Below, piece after piece: positions 47,265 to 53,220 of a stretch of DNA of 64,000 nucleotides (within the stretch, counting starts at the first letter, position 1; each line of letters starts with the position of its first letter). The DNA is from an uncultured Candidatus Binatia bacterium (lineage in GTDB: Bacteria; Desulfobacterota; Binatia; UBA9968; JAJDTQ01). The notes beneath the pieces are model-generated. The model saw nothing but the letters and a program-made list of their open reading frames with translations. It did no database searches and was not told the DNA's origin. Location of the stretch: assembly GCA_965261895.1 (NCBI GenBank), contig OZ253480.1, positions 2,727,788-2,791,787 on the forward strand, read 5' to 3'. The position numbers and the translations under genes were made by a program.

Positions 47265-48257
47265 ATGTCCAATGTTAGCATCACCGTCGCCTGTTGGGAC
47301 TATGACCGGACACGCCCCTTGCAGGAGGGCCGCGTCCCCGTGGAAGGGGTCGACCTGACCTACCTGCCGTTCCGCGTGGAGGAAACCTTCTGGCGCATGC
47401 TGCGCTACCAGGATTTCGACGCCGCCGAGATGTCCATGGGGTCCTACCTGATGTCGAAGGACAAGGGAACCCCGCGGTTCGTGGCGATTCCCGTGTTCCC
47501 CTCCCGCGCCTTCCGGCACTCCGGGATCTACATCCACACCGGTTCCGGCATCAAGGAAGCCGGCGACCTTACAGGCAAGCGGGTCGGCGTCCCCGAGTAC
47601 CAGATGACCGCGGCCATCTGGCAACGTGGCATCCTGCAGCACGAGTACGGCGTGGAGCTCGATAAAGTGAACTGGTTCACGGGTGGGGAAGAGACCCCCG
47701 GCCGGGAGGAAAAGCTCCGTCCGGACCTGCCCGAGACCCTCTCCATCACCCCCATCGGCCCGGAACAGACACTGTCCTCCATGCTGGAGAACGGCGACCT
47801 CGACGCCATGATCTCGGCTCACATGCCGTCGCCGTTCGTGCGCCGCTCGCCCAAGGTGGCGCGGCTGTTCCCGGACTTCCGTTCGGTGGAGGAGGACTAC
47901 TTCCGCAAAACGGGCATCTTCCCCATCATGCACACCGTGGTCTTTCGGGAGGACGTGTACGAACGCCATCCCTGGGTGGCCCAGAACCTCTACAAGGCCT
48001 TCTGCGAATCCAAGCGGCTCTGCGCCGAGTCCATGTACGAGTACTCCGCGCTCAAGTACATGCTGGCCTGGTCCATCGAGCAGATGGAGAAGGAGAAGGA
48101 TCTCATGGGACCCGACCCCTGGTCCTACGGGCTGGAGCCCAACCGCCATATCCTGGAGACGCTGGTGGGCTACGCCCACGAGCAGGGCCTCATCAAGCAG
48201 CGGCTCGAGGTGGACAGCCTGTTCGCCCCCAGCACGCTGAACGAGTTCAAGGTGTAG
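47265..48257 (+). CDS. PhtD/4,5-dihydroxyphthalate decarboxylase-like protein (second paralog)
   Basis: 330 aa, clearly a paralog of 4891..5889 (shared KTGIFPIMHT, DPW.YGL blocks). Confidence 0.6.
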   Translation: MSNVSITVACWDYDRTRPLQEGRVPVEGVDLTYLPFRVEETFWRMLRYQDFDAAEMSMGSYLMSKDKGTPRFVAIPVFPSRAFRHSGIYIHTGSGIKEAGDLTGKRVGVPEYQMTAAIWQRGILQHEYGVELDKVNWFTGGEETPGREEKLRPDLPETLSITPIGPEQTLSSMLENGDLDAMISAHMPSPFVRRSPKVARLFPDFRSVEEDYFRKTGIFPIMHTVVFREDVYERHPWVAQNLYKAFCESKRLCAESMYEYSALKYMLAWSIEQMEKEKDLMGPDPWSYGLEPNRHILETLVGYAHEQGLIKQRLEVDSLFAPSTLNEFKV

Positions 48258-48334
48258 CGTCTCTTACAGGAGGCTTGCCGACGAAGAGGCACGGAATGAC
48301 TTGTCACCGGCAGGGCCCGGCCAAGGGTTTGTAG

Positions 48335-48355
48335 GGGCGGGTTTCAAACCCGCCC
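48335..48355. repeat. Solo core palindrome GGGCGGGTTTCAAACCCGCCC
   Basis: Perfect 21-bp inverted repeat preceded by TTGTAG. Confidence 0.8.
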
Positions 48356-48409
48356 GTGCCCAACGACGCGGGTCCGTGCGGCCAGACGAGAACCTTCCAC
48401 GAGAACGCC

Positions 48410-48994
48410 ATGTCCGATCCCGACAAACCCGAAGTTGAATCCCCCGCCACCGAGACAGCGGACGTCGGCGCCGGCGACACCACCGTTCAAGAGGTGAAGT
48501 GGTGGATCGACACAGGAAACAAGCAACAGTCGGAAACGGATGAACGGGTCCCCAAGGGCGTGATCGAGCGCTGGGCCTTCGACCTGCTGAAGGATTACCG
48601 GCAGGAACGGGCGCTGCAGAACATCGTGGATATCAACGGCCAGGTCCTGCGCGAGCTCGGCAACAACGAGGAAAGGTGGGTCTACCTGTCCCTCGGCGTC
48701 GGCGAGTTCCCCCCGAAACGGCTCAACTACATCAAGGATTCGCTGAGAATTCCGCGCTACGCCCGCGCCCTGGCCATTGACGCCGGCTATTCGATCCGTG
48801 TCCTCATCACCGGCAACCCTCCGGGCGAAAAAGTGCTGGACATCAACTTCACCGAAGCTCCGTCCATGGACTACTGGAACAGCGGCGAGCTGATCGAGGA
48901 GCAGATGTTCCGCTCCATCGAGGACGCCCTCAAACGGTTGCGGAACTCGATCCACCGCTACTTGCGCAAGAGCACCGTGGAGACGCAAATATGA
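48410..48994 (+). CDS. Hypothetical protein (about 195 aa)
   Basis: ORF 48356..48994. Probable ATG at 48410 (MSDPDKPEV). The stop overlaps the ATG of a small ORF (48991) leading into the DUF2384 frame. Confidence 0.5.
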   Translation: MSDPDKPEVESPATETADVGAGDTTVQEVKWWIDTGNKQQSETDERVPKGVIERWAFDLLKDYRQERALQNIVDINGQVLRELGNNEERWVYLSLGVGEFPPKRLNYIKDSLRIPRYARALAIDAGYSIRVLITGNPPGEKVLDINFTEAPSMDYWNSGELIEEQMFRSIEDALKRLRNSIHRYLRKSTVETQI

Positions 48995-49130
48995 AGACCA
49001 AGGCCGTGGAGCGTAGGTGCTCTGGCAGGGCTCTTGATGTCCTGACGGAAAGAAGGATTACGGACGAGGAGATCGGCTGCCCGATCATGAAACCCCGACC
49101 CTTTCCTACCAAAAAGCAGGGGGCGGGAGG

Positions 49131-49346
49131 TTGACGGTCGAAGAATCCGACCGCGCGGTACGGGTGGCTCGGGTCATCGCGCTGGCGGAGAGAACTTTCG
49201 CCAACCAGGACAAGGCCCACCGCTGGCTTCACAAGAACCTCGTTGCGTTGGATGATCGCCGGCCCATCGACATGATCCAAACGACAGCCGGAACCCGCTT
49301 GGTTGAAGACATGCTGGCAAAGATCGCCTGGGGCGCAGCGGCGTGA
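49131..49346 (+). CDS. DUF2384 (Xre/MbcA/ParS antitoxin C-terminal domain) protein fragment; the N-terminal part lies in a different frame (48991..49134)
   Basis: TTG start. The FANQDKAHRWLHKNLVALDDRRPIDMIQTTAGTRLVEDMLAKIAWG block matches the toxin-binding domain of RES-partner antitoxins. No RES toxin ORF follows. Confidence 0.5.
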   Translation: MTVEESDRAVRVARVIALAERTFANQDKAHRWLHKNLVALDDRRPIDMIQTTAGTRLVEDMLAKIAWGAAA

Positions 49347-49491
49347 TGGGTCTGTGGGGACTTTGAGACGCCGAGGATGCCGAATGCGATCCAAGGCTCC
49401 TCGCATGGGTTGACCGGGTGGCTCTCCCGCACGTCCATGTGCTTCTTAGGTCTCTTTTTGACTTAGATGGACTCGAAAAAACGCTCTTCGA

Positions 49492-49860
49492 TTACGATCT
49501 CTTCCTTTTCGATCCTGGGCGTCTTAACGCCTGTTCCCTTGCGTCCGCTTCTCTGACTCGTTGGTCTGAATCGAGACTTCGGCCGTGATCGGTTATTGAC
49601 CAAATCCCGCGTCTGCGTTTGTCAACGGCTCCGACATGCTTCAGGCGTGTTCTTGCCCATCCCGCTCTATAATCAAGCTTCGGTTGTCGGCTCTCTCCCT
49701 GAAGCTCCTCGAGGACCTCATCGGAAAGCTCCATGATCTCAGCAATCTCTTTCGAGATCTCCTGGACCGAAGCAGACCCGCCAGTCTTGACCAGGGCCTG
49801 CAATGTAGGCCACATCAAGTCGATTTGTGTTGGCATTCTGTGGTTGCTCACGTGAATCAC
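49492..49860 (-). CDS. Stand-alone Mrr N-terminal winged-helix domain protein (no nuclease domain)
   Basis: 122 aa with the family block IDLMWPTLQALVKTGGSASVQEISKEI...YRAGWARTRLKHVG...RGIWSITDHG. It lies in the lower-GC stretch. Confidence 0.55.
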   Translation of the reverse strand: MIHVSNHRMPTQIDLMWPTLQALVKTGGSASVQEISKEIAEIMELSDEVLEELQGESRQPKLDYRAGWARTRLKHVGAVDKRRRGIWSITDHGRSLDSDQRVREADAREQALRRPGSKRKRS

Positions 49861-49867
49861 TATTCAC

Positions 49868-50653
49868 TCAAGCAGATACGCGACTGAGAATCTTTCGCTC
49901 AAGATCGCCGGTCGATTCGAGCGAAGAGACCATTTCCCCGCCCACATCTGACAACCGTGCAAGATCCAGTCGTGGGATCTCTGCCTGATCTTCAAAGACC
50001 AGTATGGAATCGAACTTGAGACTATTCCGGTGGAAGTGTGACAGTATGATAGTGGTAAGTCGGGCCTTGTCTCGGTTCGGAATGCCGTAGAGGAACAACG
50101 GTCGATCATACCGTCCCTCAATTCTGTAGTCGACAGGGTAGGCTTGGGGATTCGGCAACCCCTCCGGCAGATAGTCGGCCTGTATCTTGTCCTCGTCGAT
50201 CCGGCTCTTCAGAAAGTCGGCAAGGTCGTCGTAGAAGGTCGACCTGACACGCGATCGAGACAAAAACGTCAAATCGTGGATTCTCGTCAACGCTTGTCCA
50301 AAGCGGAAGATAGCCTCAGGCAGCCGTTCGATAGGAGCATCCACATGGAACGCACCGCCATCCCGCTCGATTCCAGTCTCGCCGACGATGCGCTCCAACA
50401 GCTCTCCCCGCGCACCTTCCAGAAACGAGTCAATATCGTGGTCGTAGCTGAGGTGCGTGAGAGTATGGCCGCTATCCGACAGGCGAATGCCTCCGGTACC
50501 GGCTTCCGAGACATGCATCGGGAACCGGTCTCCGTCGGGAAACTCAAATTGCGTACGCAACATTAATGCGCCGTCAGGCCGTTCCGTTAGCTGAACATCC
50601 TCGCACAAACGTTCACACAAGAGCCGCTGCAGCGCATTTGTGTTGATCGGCAT
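49868..50653 (-). CDS. Hypothetical protein (261 aa), second gene of a coupled pair
   Basis: ORF 49868..50704. The ATG at 50651-50653 overlaps the TGA of the upstream gene (ATGA). Lower GC than flanking genes; no recognisable motif. Confidence 0.5.
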   Translation of the reverse strand: MPINTNALQRLLCERLCEDVQLTERPDGALMLRTQFEFPDGDRFPMHVSEAGTGGIRLSDSGHTLTHLSYDHDIDSFLEGARGELLERIVGETGIERDGGAFHVDAPIERLPEAIFRFGQALTRIHDLTFLSRSRVRSTFYDDLADFLKSRIDEDKIQADYLPEGLPNPQAYPVDYRIEGRYDRPLFLYGIPNRDKARLTTIILSHFHRNSLKFDSILVFEDQAEIPRLDLARLSDVGGEMVSSLESTGDLERKILSRVSA

Positions 50654-51126
50654 CAGAGTAACCTCGGGTGATCGTGGGCCGCAGTAAGTCCGACGACGTT
50701 GCAATCGTCAATCAGACAGGCCAATGCCCCCTCCAGGGTTTCGTAGCGACCCGTTTCTTCCGCTTCGCGTTCTGGCTTCAGCCCAGCCGCGATCGCTCTT
50801 TCCGTCGCCCGGTGGATATGTACCCGATAGTGTATGTCGCCGTGTTCGTGCCCCGGGCCGTTGTAGCGGGCCAGTGTGAGTCTGGAGCCGTCCAGGGCGA
50901 CGTAGACGATCCCGCAGGAGAAGTCCGACTGATCCAACAGACCCTCGCGTTGATAGATCTCGAATCGAGATTCCTCTCCCCCCTCGCCTACGGCCTTGAA
51001 CGATCGTTGCTTGTGAACCGGTGCTACGGTCGGCTTTTCCGACCATCGTGAGTTTACATTGGATACCCGTTTGCGCACGGAACGAAGTCGGTCCAACTCT
51101 TCGTCCGTATATAGCCGTTGCACCAC
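50653..51126 (-). CDS. Hypothetical protein (157 aa), first gene of a coupled pair
   Basis: ORF with a His-rich segment (YNGPGHEHGDIHYRVHIH). Lower GC; no recognisable family. Confidence 0.5.
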   Translation of the reverse strand: MVQRLYTDEELDRLRSVRKRVSNVNSRWSEKPTVAPVHKQRSFKAVGEGGEESRFEIYQREGLLDQSDFSCGIVYVALDGSRLTLARYNGPGHEHGDIHYRVHIHRATERAIAAGLKPEREAEETGRYETLEGALACLIDDCNVVGLTAAHDHPRLL

Positions 51127-51266
51127 GTCTTCAACCAGCCTGGCCGAATTCCGATATCACAGTCGGCTCGTCGATGGATAGCCGGTGAAATCGCTCATGC
51201 TGCTCGACACGCAAGCGAAACTGCCTAGCGACAACTACGGGCCACTTCTTTGTCCCGGCCACCGGG

Positions 51267-52376
51267 TCAACCGGCGGCGCCGCCCCGCCGGATGGTGCCG
51301 GGGCGCATGGGGAAGGGGACCGAGTCGGTGATCTCCAGGCCGTAGCCGGAGAGGCCCACGAGGTTTCTGGGGTTGTTGGTGACGAGCCGGAGCTTGCGCA
51401 CGCCCAGGTCGCGCAGGATCTGGGCGCCGATGCCGAAGTCGCGGAAGTTCCTGGCCTCTCTGGCTTCGGCGGTGCGCAGGCCCTTGCCTTCGGGCTGGAG
51501 GTAGAGCAGGACGCCCGCGCCTTCCTTGGCGATCAACTCCATGGACTGCTTGATGACCGACCCGGTGTCGAAGAACTCGAAGCCGAACACGTCGCCGGGG
51601 AGGAACTTGGTGCACACCCGCACCAGGGTCTCGCGGTCCTCGGAGATCTCACCCTTGATGAGGGCCAGGTGCTCGGCGGAATCCACGTGGGTGTTGTAGA
51701 CCACTGCCCGAAACTCGCCGCCGTAGCGCGTCGGCAAGCGGGTGGTGGCCACCCGGTGGATCAGCGAGTCGTGCTTGAGGCGGTACTGGATGAGGTCGGC
51801 GATGGTGCAGATCTTGAGGTCGTACTTCTCGCCGAACTCCTCGAGGTCCGCCAGCCGCGCCATGGTGCCGTCATCCTTCATGATCTCGCAGATCACGCTG
51901 GCGGGCCTGAGCCCCGCCAGCCGGCAAAGGTCCACGGAGCCTTCGGTCTGACCCGTGCGTACCAGCACGCCGCCTTCCCTCGCCCGCAACGGGAAGATGT
52001 GCCCGGGCGTGCACAGGTCGGCGGGTCCGGCGTCGTCGGCAATGGCGGCGAGGATGGTCTCGGCCCGGTCGGAGGCCGAGATGCCGGTGGTAACGTTCTT
52101 GACGCCGTCGATGGAGACCGTGAACGCGGTGCCGAAGGGCGCCGTGTTGTCCCTCACCATCATGGTGAGGCCGAGCTGGTCGACCTTGTCCTGGGTAAGC
52201 GGCAGGCAGATCAGGCCCCTCCCCCAGGTGGCCATGAAGTTGATGGCCTCCGGGGTGACCAGTTCCGCGGCCATGGTCAGGTCACCCTCGTTCTCGCGGT
52301 TCTGGTCATCCATCAGGATGACCATCTTGCCTTGCCTGATGTCTTCAAGCGCTTCTTCTATGGTGGCTACGGGCAT
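51267..52376 (-). CDS. ribBA: 3,4-dihydroxy-2-butanone-4-phosphate synthase fused to a GTP cyclohydrolase II-like domain lacking the zinc-binding Cys triad
   Basis: 369 aa. The N-terminal DHBP synthase is intact (RENEGDL, TAFTVSID). In the C-terminal domain the expected CxxGC...C pattern reads VCTKFLPGDVFGFEFFDTG. Confidence 0.8.
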   Translation of the reverse strand: MPVATIEEALEDIRQGKMVILMDDQNRENEGDLTMAAELVTPEAINFMATWGRGLICLPLTQDKVDQLGLTMMVRDNTAPFGTAFTVSIDGVKNVTTGISASDRAETILAAIADDAGPADLCTPGHIFPLRAREGGVLVRTGQTEGSVDLCRLAGLRPASVICEIMKDDGTMARLADLEEFGEKYDLKICTIADLIQYRLKHDSLIHRVATTRLPTRYGGEFRAVVYNTHVDSAEHLALIKGEISEDRETLVRVCTKFLPGDVFGFEFFDTGSVIKQSMELIAKEGAGVLLYLQPEGKGLRTAEAREARNFRDFGIGAQILRDLGVRKLRLVTNNPRNLVGLSGYGLEITDSVPFPMRPGTIRRGGAAG

Positions 52377-52467
52377 GGGTTCCTAACCTAACATTTCGCT
52401 TGCCAAGGTCAAAGATGGCGACGGAATCCCCCGGGGCAACTCCGAATCTTCCGCGCGACCGCCACAC

Positions 52468-52488
52468 GGGCGGGTTTGAAACCCGCCC
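52468..52488. repeat. Solo core palindrome GGGCGGGTTTGAAACCCGCCC
   Basis: Perfect 21-bp inverted repeat. The adjacent CCTAC supplies the pyrF TAG stop (52489-52491). Confidence 0.8.
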
Positions 52489-53220
52489 CTACAACAGCGT
52501 ACCAGCCATCTCGGCGACCACCGACCGAGCCGCGGCGACCGGGTCGTCCGCGGCGGTGATGGGCCTGCCCACGACGATGAAGTCGATGCCCGCGCGAACC
52601 GCGTCTCCCGGGGTCATGACCCGCTTCTGGTCGCCTGCCTGCTGACCCGCGGGCCGGATGCCCGGCGTGACCAGCATGAAGGAATCGCCGCAGGCGCGCC
52701 GGATCTCCGGGACCTCCTGGGCGGAGCAGACGACGCCCGCCAGACCCGCCTCCTGCGCCATGCCGGCCAGCCGTACGACCTGGGCGGGCACGCCGTTCCG
52801 GATCCCCAGCGCATCGAGGTCCGACCCGTCGAGGCTGGTGAGGACGGTCACGCCCAGCACCGACGGCCGCCGCAGTCCTTCCTTCCCGCACACTTCCTCG
52901 ACCGCCGCCGCGGTCTGCCGCATCATCTCCCGGCCGCCGGAGATGTGCAGGTTGAACAGCCGGACCCCGAGCCGGGCGGCTTCCACGGCCGCCGCCGCCA
53001 CGGTGTTGGGAATGTCGTGGAACTTGAGGTCGAGGAAGACCTCGCCGCCGAGATCGTGGATCATGCGGACGACGTTCGGCCCGGCGTTCACGAAGAGCTG
53101 CTTGCCGACCTTGAACATCCCCACTTCCGGGGCGAGGAGGGTGGCGAGGGTTCTCGCTTTCGCCGGATCGGCCAGGTCCAGGGCCACGATCAGGCGCTGC
53201 TTGATATCCGTGGCCGTCAT
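52489..53220 (-). CDS. pyrF: Orotidine-5'-phosphate decarboxylase
   Basis: Probable ATG at 53220 (MTATDIKQRLIVALD). DLKFHDIPNT and catalytic Lys context. The longer ORF 52489..54267 is an out-of-frame artefact overlapping proS. Confidence 0.85.
   Translation of the reverse strand: MTATDIKQRLIVALDLADPAKARTLATLLAPEVGMFKVGKQLFVNAGPNVVRMIHDLGGEVFLDLKFHDIPNTVAAAAVEAARLGVRLFNLHISGGREMMRQTAAAVEEVCGKEGLRRPSVLGVTVLTSLDGSDLDALGIRNGVPAQVVRLAGMAQEAGLAGVVCSAQEVPEIRRACGDSFMLVTPGIRPAGQQAGDQKRVMTPGDAVRAGIDFIVVGRPITAADDPVAAARSVVAEMAGTLL

What the first reader, a model, noticed from the sequence alone, without database searches (positions are those of the whole stretch)
48410..49346. Frameshifted Xre/DUF2384-type antitoxin without its RES-type toxin, translationally coupled to an unknown upstream gene
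The DUF2384 toxin-binding domain (49131-49346, TTG start) is preceded by a 47-codon ORF in another frame (48991-49134). Together they approximate the size of MbcA-like antitoxins, suggesting a frameshifted antitoxin. No RES-domain ORF follows; the sequence instead runs into the lower-GC islet. The upstream 195-aa unknown protein (48410-48994) has its stop overlapping the ATG of the small ORF. It is therefore co-translated with the antitoxin, which is unusual for RES-Xre modules (order antitoxin then toxin). The upstream protein could be a different toxin partner, or the locus is a decayed module disrupted by the islet insertion.
Basis: partly seen in the sequence, partly recalled or inferred. 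Interest (0 to 1): 0.5.

Follow-up and report, generated by a model that had tools for sequence, protein, structure and literature searches.

The report
Decayed RES-Xre toxin-antitoxin remnant
This is the wreck of an ordinary RES-Xre toxin-antitoxin cassette: the antitoxin is split by a real one-base deletion and the toxin is cut down to a 13-codon stub; it sits in a spot between two conserved genes where related Binatia genomes carry different cargo, and the upstream 194-aa gene is a conserved neighbour, not a toxin.

Summary
The three ORFs, both 4-nt start/stop overlaps and the DUF2384 (PF09722) hit are real. The antitoxin is truly frameshifted, but by a 1-nt deletion at 49097/49098, not at 49120-49140. 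Intact relatives at the same locus (L026, L011) show one 117-aa Xre-HTH+PF09722 antitoxin followed by a 157-aa RES toxin.

In the window only the first ~13-17 codons of the toxin survive (49345-~49397), with a stop at codon 7. They abut a 3'-truncated Mrr-type restriction gene.

The deletion is present in at least 3 assemblies, including strains ~1% diverged, so it is not a sequencing error.

ORF1 (48410-48994) is not a toxin partner. It belongs to a small, highly conserved family that keeps the same synteny (nuo operon / 330-aa protein / ORF1 -> <- ribBA) in all 27 Binatia-type loci examined. Six of them have no cassette at all.

The ORF1-ribBA gap (24-3702 nt) varies in cargo. The ATGA overlap arose because a deletion or cassette exchange joined the antitoxin ATG to the end of ORF1.

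One thing is left open: the 71-aa toxin-binding domain is kept intact in several toxin-less relatives (dN/dS 0.11-0.19), and in L028 it sits next to an intact toxin. It may still work as a stand-alone antitoxin.

The parts
48410..48994 (+). ORF1. A conserved 194-aa protein of unknown function that forms the left flank of the variable site. It is not part of the TA module.
48989..48994 (+). Left junction of the cassette. ORF1's last codon (ATA) and its stop come from non-flank sequence. The ATGA is the ORF1 stop overlapping the antitoxin start.
   Evidence: Flank homology (97-98% to L024-L026) ends at 48985-48988. L026 reads GAGACGCAATTGTAA where the window reads GAGACGCAAATATGA.
48991..49097 (+). 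Antitoxin 5' part (Xre-like HTH region), read in the frame of ORF2.
   Evidence: It aligns to residues 2-35 of the intact L026 and L011 antitoxins at 52-59% identity. dN/dS against L026 is 0.78, with differences spread [8,7,6] over the three codon positions.
49097..49098 (+). Site of the 1-nt deletion that shifts the antitoxin reading frame.
   Evidence: There is a single gap in the DNA alignments to L011 and L026. The same deletion is present in L001/L029, L030 and L031, which come from different assemblies.
49098..49346 (+). Antitoxin 3' part, in the frame of ORF3. It holds the end of the HTH region and the PF09722 toxin-binding domain (about 49185-49334).
   Evidence: 89% amino-acid identity to L026 residues 36-117. 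PF09722 E=9.5e-15. The repaired 118-aa protein passes both PF20432 (26.6 bits against 25.8) and PF09722. It also hits the P. putida Xre antitoxin 6GW6_B at E=7.5e-12.
48991..49134 (+). ORF2 as encoded: 47 aa, made of 35 fully native antitoxin residues, an Arg codon that spans the deletion, and 11 out-of-frame residues.
   Evidence: The stop TGA at 49132-49134 overlaps the TTG of ORF3.
49131..49346 (+). ORF3 as encoded: 71 aa with a TTG start, containing only the toxin-binding domain.
   Evidence: The GGAGG lies directly against the TTG with no spacer, so any translation would have to be by reinitiation. That last step is inferred.
49345..49397 (+). 5' stub of the RES toxin gene. It reads MGLWGL*DAEDAE, with the stop codon at 49363-49365.
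   Evidence: The DNA aligns to the start of the L026, L011 and L028 RES genes (MRLWRLSNAEDAE) up to about 49387-49397, after which homology is lost.
49492..49860 (-). 3'-truncated Mrr-type (type IV) restriction gene. Only the N-terminal domain remains.
   Evidence: PF14338 Mrr_N E=1.7e-23. The PADLOC mREase_IV model matches only at positions 3-91 of 317. Further eroded copies are seen in L027 and L018.
49868..50704 (-). DUF1828 protein, cargo of the islet.
   Evidence: PF08861 E=1.3e-16. PADLOC candidate defence protein PDC-M24B E=9e-15. Also present in L016, L018 and L027.
50653..51126 (-). Unknown ORF of 157 aa (called as 94 aa in L001), paired with the DUF1828 gene.
   Evidence: No family hit.
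51267..52376 (-). ribBA (DHBP synthase / GTP cyclohydrolase II), the right flank of the variable site.
   Evidence: Pfam families in the gene tables. Flank homology resumes at about 51255-51267.

Best explanation
The segment 48989-51266 is variable cargo between two convergent conserved genes (ORF1 and ribBA) of a Candidatus Binatia-type genome. Its left end is a degenerate RES-Xre type II toxin-antitoxin cassette.

In the intact state, seen in relatives, a 117-aa antitoxin (N-terminal Xre-like HTH plus a C-terminal toxin-binding domain) is followed, with an ATGA overlap, by a 157-aa RES toxin. RES toxins consume NAD+ or act as ADP-ribosyltransferases.

Three lesions are seen in this window:
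- The spacer and promoter between ORF1 and the antitoxin are gone, so the antitoxin ATG now overlaps the ORF1 stop.
- One base is missing at 49097/49098. This splits the antitoxin into a 47-aa HTH fragment and a 71-aa toxin-binding fragment.
- All but the first ~13-17 codons of the toxin are deleted, together with the 3' part of a convergent Mrr-type restriction gene. The stub also carries a stop codon.

The locus therefore cannot act as a TA module. ORF1 is an unrelated conserved neighbour.

Shown: the homology, the lesions, the synteny, and the presence of the deletion in several strains. Inferred: the order of events, and that the remnant is now at most a stand-alone antitoxin fragment transcribed with ORF1.
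For: - Domain hits: ORF3 matches PF09722, TIGR02293 and NF049845 over their C-terminal parts only.
- Intact modules at the same locus: L011 has an antitoxin of 117 aa (PF20432 + PF09722) and a RES toxin with PF08808 E=9.6e-24. L026 has flanks 97% identical to the window.
- Frameshift: single-base gap at 49097/98 in the DNA alignments; two tblastn HSPs in two frames; the repaired protein passes both Pfam domains and hits 6GW6_B.
- Toxin: the stub is aligned to the start of the RES genes, and there is no other RES gene in the 64-kb window.
- The deletion is real: the exact 47-aa frameshift product occurs on at least 5 contigs from at least 3 ENA analyses. L030 and L031 differ from the window by about 1% elsewhere but share the deletion.
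- The HTH part shows relaxed constraint (dN/dS 0.78, differences even over codon positions), against 0.16 for the C-terminal domain in the same pair.
- ORF1 is independent of the cassette: it keeps the same synteny in all loci. Six loci have only a 24-139-nt gap to ribBA and no Xre or RES gene. Other loci carry unrelated cargo.
- Literature: in RES-Xre systems the C terminus of the antitoxin plugs the toxin's active site, and the mbcA-mbcT (Rv1990c-Rv1989c) genes form one operon (PMC6436930). That the antitoxin gene comes first is seen in the intact relatives here. Orphan antitoxins from degrading TA pairs are common (PMC7192599).
Against: - The C-terminal domain shows no sign of decay. It has no stops, is 89% identical to an intact relative, and has dN/dS 0.16. 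'Dead remnant' may therefore be too strong for that part.
- The RES/Mrr deletion joint itself (somewhere in 49398-49491) could not be mapped to the base, because no relative with both genes intact was found.
- The order of the three lesions is inferred, not shown.
Confidence: 0.85

Rival explanations
1. The 71-aa toxin-binding fragment (ORF3) is a functional stand-alone antitoxin without the HTH. It would be transcribed from the ORF1 promoter and translated by termination-reinitiation (ATGA, then TTGA). It would be kept by selection because it neutralises RES toxins that enter by recombination at this site or from mobile elements (an anti-addiction or immunity role). This is compatible with the decay history; it differs only on the present function.
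For: - L028 has an ATG-started 71-aa HTH-less version that begins at the same codon. It overlaps the ORF1 stop (ATGA) and is followed by an intact 157-aa RES toxin.
- 13 of the 18 nearest homologue clusters are short PF09722-only proteins of 56-89 aa.
- Six toxin-less copies (window, L004, L007, L016, L025, L027) all keep an open C-terminal domain, while their 5' parts differ.
- Four of the five codon-aligned toxin-less copies (L004 was left out) have pairwise dN/dS of 0.11-0.19 at dS 0.5-1.2, the same as between intact copies (0.14).
- The window, L027 and L016 share the Xre-C / DUF1828 adjacency with nested deletions between the two genes. This suggests an old toxin-less state.
- The C terminus of the antitoxin is the part that blocks the toxin (PMC6436930).
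Against: - The start is TTG with the GGAGG directly abutting it (no spacer), so efficient initiation is doubtful.
- Low pairwise dN/dS can be inherited from the time when each copy was still part of an intact module.
- L025 shows relaxation (dN/dS 0.27-0.41).
- There is no RES gene in the 64-kb window for it to act on.
- A shared toxin-loss event for the window, L027 and L016 is plausible but not proven.
Confidence: 0.25
2. One reading: ORF1 is a new toxin, or a third component, partnered with the DUF2384 antitoxin in reversed gene order.
For: - ATGA overlap of ORF1 with the antitoxin start in the window, and independently with the short antitoxin in L028 and L004.
- ORF1 has no known function.
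Against: - ORF1 is present, at 50-97% identity, in every relative. These include six loci with no Xre or RES gene and others with unrelated cargo.
- In the intact modules the antitoxin lies about 190-400 nt downstream of ORF1 and has its own RES toxin.
- ORF1 is always preceded by the 330-aa gene, in an operon-like arrangement.
- Flank homology ends 2 nt before the antitoxin ATG, so the overlap is a junction.
- No toxin family hit in Pfam, NCBIfam or PADLOC.
Confidence: 0.02
3. The frameshift is an assembly or sequencing error and the antitoxin is really intact.
For: - Related long-read contigs from the same projects do contain indel errors (L004; single gaps in ORF1 of L025 and L026).
- The site lies next to a C4 run.
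Against: - The identical deletion is found on at least 5 contigs from at least 3 analyses. One is a 56x contig and one comes from a differently named scaffold assembly. The strains differ by about 1% elsewhere.
- The missing base is not inside a homopolymer.
- The HTH part upstream shows radical replacements of conserved hydrophobic residues and dN/dS 0.78.
- The toxin is deleted in any case.
Confidence: 0.02
4. A programmed or compensatory -1 ribosomal frameshift within the 34-nt frame overlap (49098-49131) restores a full-length antitoxin. A candidate site is C AAA AAG at 49110-49116, a run created by a G-to-A change relative to L026.
For: - AAA AAG is a known slippery hexamer in E. coli dnaX (my own knowledge, not tested here).
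- The window reads CCAAAAAG where L026 reads CCGAAAAG.
- A possible CGGTCG...CGACCG hairpin lies downstream (read; not folded).
Against: - Intact relatives encode the protein in one frame.
- Only the window and near-identical strains carry the shift.
- The X XXY YYZ rule is not met at the P-site position.
- The HTH region shows relaxed constraint.
- No toxin is left to regulate.
Confidence: 0.03

Closest known systems
RES-Xre type II toxin-antitoxin systems (P. putida RES-Xre, PDB 6GW6; M. tuberculosis MbcTA; ParST; NatRT; KnaAT; SlvTA)
   Same: - The antitoxin domain architecture (Xre-like HTH PF20432 plus the C-terminal toxin-binding domain PF09722) is recovered once the missing base is restored.
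- The gene order is antitoxin then toxin, with an ATGA overlap.
- The closest solved structure is 6GW6_B (E=7.5e-12).
- Intact homologues at the same locus carry a 157-aa RES toxin that matches 6GW6_A, 9R35_A and ParT 6D0H.
   Different: - In the window the antitoxin is split by a frameshift.
- The toxin is reduced to a 13-17-codon stub with a stop codon.
- The region upstream of the antitoxin, where its own promoter would be expected (inferred), is missing.
- The antitoxin start is fused onto the stop of an unrelated host gene.
Orphan antitoxins and the anti-addiction hypothesis (survey of Klebsiella genomes, PMC7192599)
   Same: - An antitoxin-derived ORF lies in the original genomic context, with the toxin side replaced.
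- Several toxin-less copies exist across related genomes.
   Different: - Here only the toxin-binding half remains as an ORF, with a weak TTG start.
- Function as an orphan antitoxin is not demonstrated.
Variable cargo sites (defence or TA islets) between conserved core genes
   Same: - The ORF1-ribBA gap ranges from 24 to 3702 nt over 27 loci.
- It carries RES-Xre modules, a DUF1828/PDC-M24B-like gene, Mrr remnants, an IetA-like AAA ATPase and a 1035-aa Laminin_G/PPC protein.
- Cassette alleles are far more diverged than the flanks (Xre-C dS 0.52 against ORF1 dS 0.10).
   Different: No integrase, tRNA gene or flanking direct repeats were found. Exchange is probably by homologous recombination through the flanks, which is inferred.

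Membership tests
RES-Xre type II TA module | The antitoxin carries the C-terminal Xre/MbcA/ParS toxin-binding domain (PF09722 / DUF2384). | tested here: met
   ORF3 scores 54.8 bits against a cut-off of 24.5 (E=9.5e-15). TIGR02293 scores 72.2 bits against a cut-off of 57.
RES-Xre type II TA module | The antitoxin has an N-terminal Xre-like HTH (PF20432) in the same reading frame as the C-terminal domain. | tested here: not met
   As encoded, the two halves lie in different frames because of the 1-nt deletion at 49097/98. NF049845 stays below its cut-off (78-85 bits against 90).
RES-Xre type II TA module | A RES-domain toxin gene (PF08808) lies immediately downstream of the antitoxin. | tested here: not met
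   Only a stub at 49345-~49397 remains, with a stop at codon 7. There is no RES match anywhere in the window. It is present and intact in relatives L011, L026 and L028.
RES-Xre type II TA module | Toxicity (NAD+ degradation or ADP-ribosylation) that is neutralised by the antitoxin. | not testable with these tools
   This needs expression assays. It is moot here because the toxin gene is deleted.
Novel toxin paired with a DUF2384 antitoxin (ORF1 as the toxin) | Conserved co-occurrence and adjacency of ORF1 homologues with an antitoxin gene. | tested here: not met
   An ORF1 homologue was found in all 27 related loci examined (28 loci counting L006, which is too short to show the site). Xre sequence is present in only about 11 of them, and six loci have an empty site.
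Novel toxin paired with a DUF2384 antitoxin (ORF1 as the toxin) | Sequence or fold similarity of ORF1 to a known toxin class. | tested here: not met
   [not shown]
Programmed -1 ribosomal frameshift gene | The frameshift is conserved among homologues and there is a canonical slippery site at the shift. | tested here: not met
   Homologues are in a single frame (L011, L026). The shift is seen only in the window and near-identical strains. There is no X XXY YYZ motif at 49097, only a partial C AAA AAG at 49110-49116.

The most novel reading that the evidence does not exclude
The 71-aa DUF2384 fragment is not dead. Under this reading, HTH-less mini-antitoxins made of the toxin-binding domain alone, expressed by translational coupling to the conserved host gene ORF1, are a working form in this Binatia lineage. 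In L028 one guards an intact RES toxin. In the window and other toxin-less loci they would be kept by selection as immunity against RES cassettes that circulate through this variable site by recombination. The window would then be a natural example of a host gene capturing an antitoxin as an anti-addiction device.
Probability: 0.2. Interest if true: 0.5.

Novelty: new member of a known kind. Interest (0 to 1): 0.25.

Why it matters
For annotation:
- 48991-49346 should be marked as a frameshifted Xre-family antitoxin pseudogene.
- 49345-~49397 should be marked as a RES toxin remnant.
- ORF1 should not be annotated as a toxin.

Biologically, the locus is a clear and ordinary example of how chromosomal TA modules decay. 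The toxin goes first and the antitoxin's toxin-binding half goes last. This happens inside a site whose cargo differs between closely related, uncultured (MAG-only) Binatia-type genomes.

Only one point is of wider interest: the possible retention of HTH-less antitoxin fragments as stand-alone neutralisers. That is testable but not shown here.

Tried and rejected
This moved the frameshift to 49097/98.
- Flanking direct or inverted repeats that could mark site-specific insertion: only short matches at chance level. The 15-nt inverted pair 49408-49422 / 51258-51272 was not pursued.
- Rfam scan of 48000-52800: no hit.
- The promoter/terminator scan gave no informative sites near the junctions.
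- P0079, an apparent ORF1-DUF2384 fusion protein, turned out to lie on an error-rich contig (L004) that has the L028-type ATGA junction. It is not a real fusion.
- Pairwise dN/dS cannot separate a recently orphaned copy from one held under selection.

Full report
**1. Observation**

The ORF list and the sequence confirm the three ORFs.
- ORF1 is 48410-48994 (194 aa).
- ORF2 is 48991-49134 (47 aa). Its ATG overlaps the ORF1 stop as ATGA.
- ORF3 is 49131-49346 (71 aa). Its TTG overlaps the ORF2 stop as TTGA.
- Each ORF lies in a different frame.

ORF3 matches PF09722 (Xre/MbcA/ParS C-terminal toxin-binding domain, formerly DUF2384) at E=9.5e-15. It covers only the C-terminal parts of the full-length antitoxin models: NF049845 positions 43-112 of 112, and TIGR02293 positions 64-133 of 133. 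ORF1 and ORF2 have no family hit. GC drops from about 0.60-0.63 to 0.52-0.58 downstream.

**2. Where the frame breaks**

Reading ORF3's own frame further upstream, where there is no start codon, scored 85.3 bits and extended the match to model position 29. The break therefore had to lie further upstream.

Relatives with intact genes settled it.
- L011 and L026 carry, at the same genomic position, a 117-aa antitoxin (PF20432 Xre-like HTH plus PF09722) followed by a 157-aa RES toxin (PF08808, E=9.6e-24) with an ATGA overlap.
- DNA alignments show one missing base in the window between G49097 and A49098: CCCCG-ACCC in the window, CCCCGAACGC in L026, CCCCGCACAC in L011.
- tblastn of the L026 antitoxin gives residues 2-45 in one frame (48997-49128, 52% identity) and residues 36-117 in another (49098-49343, 89% identity).
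- With the base restored, the 118-aa protein passes both Pfam domains. It also hits the P. putida Xre antitoxin 6GW6_B at E=7.5e-12.

ORF2 is thus the true antitoxin N-terminus: 35 fully native residues, an Arg codon that spans the deletion, then 11 out-of-frame residues.

**3. Is the deletion real?**

- The exact 47-aa frameshift product is encoded on at least 5 contigs from at least 3 ENA analyses.
- L030 (a 56x contig) and L031 (a scaffold from another assembly) differ from the window by about 1% over 1.7-3.1 kb, yet share the deletion.
- The HTH part has radical replacements (GFSV to RCSG, LII to PIM).
- Its dN/dS against L026 is 0.78, with changes spread evenly over codon positions [8,7,6]. 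The C-terminal domain in the same pair gives 0.16 and [4,1,14].

A sequencing error is therefore very unlikely.

**4. The toxin**

Directly after the antitoxin stop, an ATG at 49345 (ATGA overlap, as in the intact modules) opens a stretch homologous to the start of the RES gene. The window reads MGLWGL*DAEDAE where relatives read MRLWRLSNAEDAE. There is a TGA at 49363-49365, and homology is lost at about 49387-49397. No other RES-like sequence exists in the 64-kb window.

The next gene, 49492-49860 on the minus strand, is only the N-terminal domain of an Mrr-type type IV restriction enzyme. It matches PF14338 and positions 3-91 of 317 of the PADLOC mREase_IV model. One deletion between the two convergent genes would account for the loss of both 3' parts. 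This is an inference; the exact joint within 49398-49491 could not be mapped.

**5. ORF1 and the site**

ORF1 belongs to a small, strongly conserved family.
- There are 79 clusters at 50-97% identity, with 57% mean column identity in a 35-sequence alignment.
- Only 69 representatives were found among 1.84 billion proteins.
- All 17 hits among species-representative genomes are metagenome-assembled genomes. Eleven are labelled Candidatus Binatia; the rest are labelled Thermodesulfobacteriota, Deltaproteobacteria, Syntrophobacterales or Bryobacterales.

In the related loci the order is nuo operon (minus strand), a 330-aa substrate-binding-like gene, ORF1, then convergent ribBA-pyrF-proS. The most distant locus, L005, keeps only the ORF1-ribBA convergence.

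The distance from the end of ORF1 to the end of ribBA ranges from 24 to 3702 nt. The site holds:
- nothing in six loci (L003, L008-L010, L017, L020);
- an intact RES-Xre module in L011 and L026;
- a short antitoxin plus an intact toxin in L028;
- toxin-less Xre C-terminal fragments in the window, L004, L007, L016, L025 and L027;
- DUF1828 with or without the 157-aa partner in the window, L016, L018 and L027;
- RES fragments without Xre in L013, L015 and L019;
- unrelated cargo, such as a 1035-aa Laminin_G/PPC protein in L002/L012 and an IetA-like AAA ATPase in L024.

Flank identity to the closest strains is 97-98%. It stops at 48985-48988 on the left and resumes at about 51255-51267 on the right. 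Inside the site, the Xre DNA is only 77-86% identical to those same strains. Between the window and L027, synonymous divergence is 0.10 for ORF1 but 0.52 for Xre-C. The cargo therefore has a different history from the flanks. Exchange by recombination is inferred. No integrase, tRNA gene or flanking repeats were found.

**6. The ATGA overlap with ORF1**

In L026 and L011 the antitoxin ATG lies about 190-400 nt downstream of the ORF1 stop. In the window, flank homology ends at GAGACGCAA (48988). The next bases are AT, then the antitoxin ATG. ORF1's last codon and its stop therefore come from the junction.

The overlap is the scar of a deletion or of a cassette exchange. It also removed whatever lay upstream of the antitoxin; that this included the module's own promoter is inferred. 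It is not a sign of partnership.

L028 and L004 carry a different ATGA junction. There ORF1 overlaps an ATG placed exactly at the codon that is TTG in the window, giving a 71-aa HTH-less antitoxin. In L028 an intact RES toxin follows it.

**7. What it does now**

Most likely it does nothing as a TA system. There is no toxin, no intact DNA-binding domain and no upstream spacer of its own (confidence 0.85).

One reading stays open, at about 0.2-0.25: the 71-aa toxin-binding fragment may still be made and still be useful.

For this reading:
- L028 shows that such a fragment coexists with an intact toxin.
- 13 of the 18 closest homologue clusters are short PF09722-only proteins.
- Six toxin-less copies keep an open C-terminal domain while their 5' ends differ.
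- Pairwise dN/dS among four of the five codon-aligned toxin-less copies is 0.11-0.19 at dS 0.5-1.2, as between intact copies.
- The window, L027 and L016 share the Xre-C / DUF1828 adjacency, with nested deletions between the two genes.
- In solved RES-Xre complexes the antitoxin C terminus is what blocks the toxin's active site (PMC6436930).
- Orphan antitoxins are common and have been proposed to act as anti-addiction modules (PMC7192599).

Against it:
- The start is TTG with GGAGG touching it and no spacer.
- Low pairwise dN/dS may date from before the toxin was lost.
- L025 shows relaxation.

A programmed -1 frameshift (partial slippery run CAAAAAG at 49110-49116) and a sequencing error are both judged unlikely (0.03 and 0.02).

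**8. Verdict**

This is a known kind of system (RES-Xre type II TA) in a decayed state, located in a site of variable cargo. Of its interpretations, the decay option is right and the ORF1-as-toxin option is wrong. Interest is low to moderate (0.25). The one follow-up worth making is whether HTH-less DUF2384 fragments act as stand-alone antitoxins.

Noticed in passing
L028:3408-4689 (JGI 3300012932, 50-kb contig): The ORF1 homologue's stop overlaps (ATGA) an ATG-started 71-aa PF09722-only antitoxin that has no HTH. That antitoxin in turn overlaps (ATGA) an intact 157-aa RES toxin next to ribBA. This looks like a TA module that has lost its DNA-binding domain and is driven by a host gene.
   Followed up: partly
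window 48334-48355, also 3172, 5960, 8491, 24999, 33648, 36327, 44406, 45682, 46571, 52467: A 22-30-nt REP-like palindrome (GGGGCGGGTTTCAAACCCGCCC) occurs 11 times in the 64-kb window. The three copies checked against the ORF list (46571, 48334, 52467) lie between genes. It also occurs in the related loci. It translates to the recurring 'GGFETRPY' and 'GAGFKPA' peptides seen in spurious ORFs.
   Followed up: partly
window 48989-51266 and the equivalent site in L002-L028: The gap between convergent ORF1 and ribBA varies from 24 to 3702 nt in Binatia-type genomes. Its cargo includes TA modules, a DUF1828/PDC-M24B-like gene, Mrr remnants, an IetA-like AAA ATPase (L024:5977-8064) and a 1035-aa Laminin_G/PPC protein (L002:4594-7701). 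No integrase or att-like repeats were seen.
   Followed up: partly
window 49868-51126 (minus strand): A DUF1828 protein (PADLOC candidate PDC-M24B, E=9e-15) overlaps an unknown 94-157-aa ORF. The pair recurs in L016 and L018, and L027 has the DUF1828 gene alone. It could be a small defence or TA-like pair of its own.
   Followed up: no
window 49492-49860 (minus strand): An ORF holding only the Mrr N-terminal domain, with no nuclease domain. Progressively shorter remnants are seen in L027 and L018. It appears to be a decaying type IV restriction gene.
   Followed up: partly
[not shown]
   Followed up: partly
L013, L015, L019 (between ORF1 and ribBA): RES-like fragments (57-65% identity to the L026 toxin, partial coverage) occur without any Xre match. 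They may be remnants of a second, more divergent RES cassette type at the same site.
   Followed up: no
window 49408-49422 and 51258-51272: A 15-nt inverted repeat (14 of 15 bases complementary). One arm lies just after the toxin stub and the other spans the ribBA stop at the right edge of the cassette. By my own rough estimate a match of this size could arise by chance in 2.5 kb.
   Followed up: no
window 48465-48973 compared with L030 and L031: Between strains that share the frameshifted cassette, SNPs cluster in ORF1 (19 SNPs in L030 between 48465 and 48958, about 4%). The Xre remnant has 0-1 SNP in 510 nt. This suggests that the cassette recently spread across diverged ORF1 alleles.
   Followed up: no
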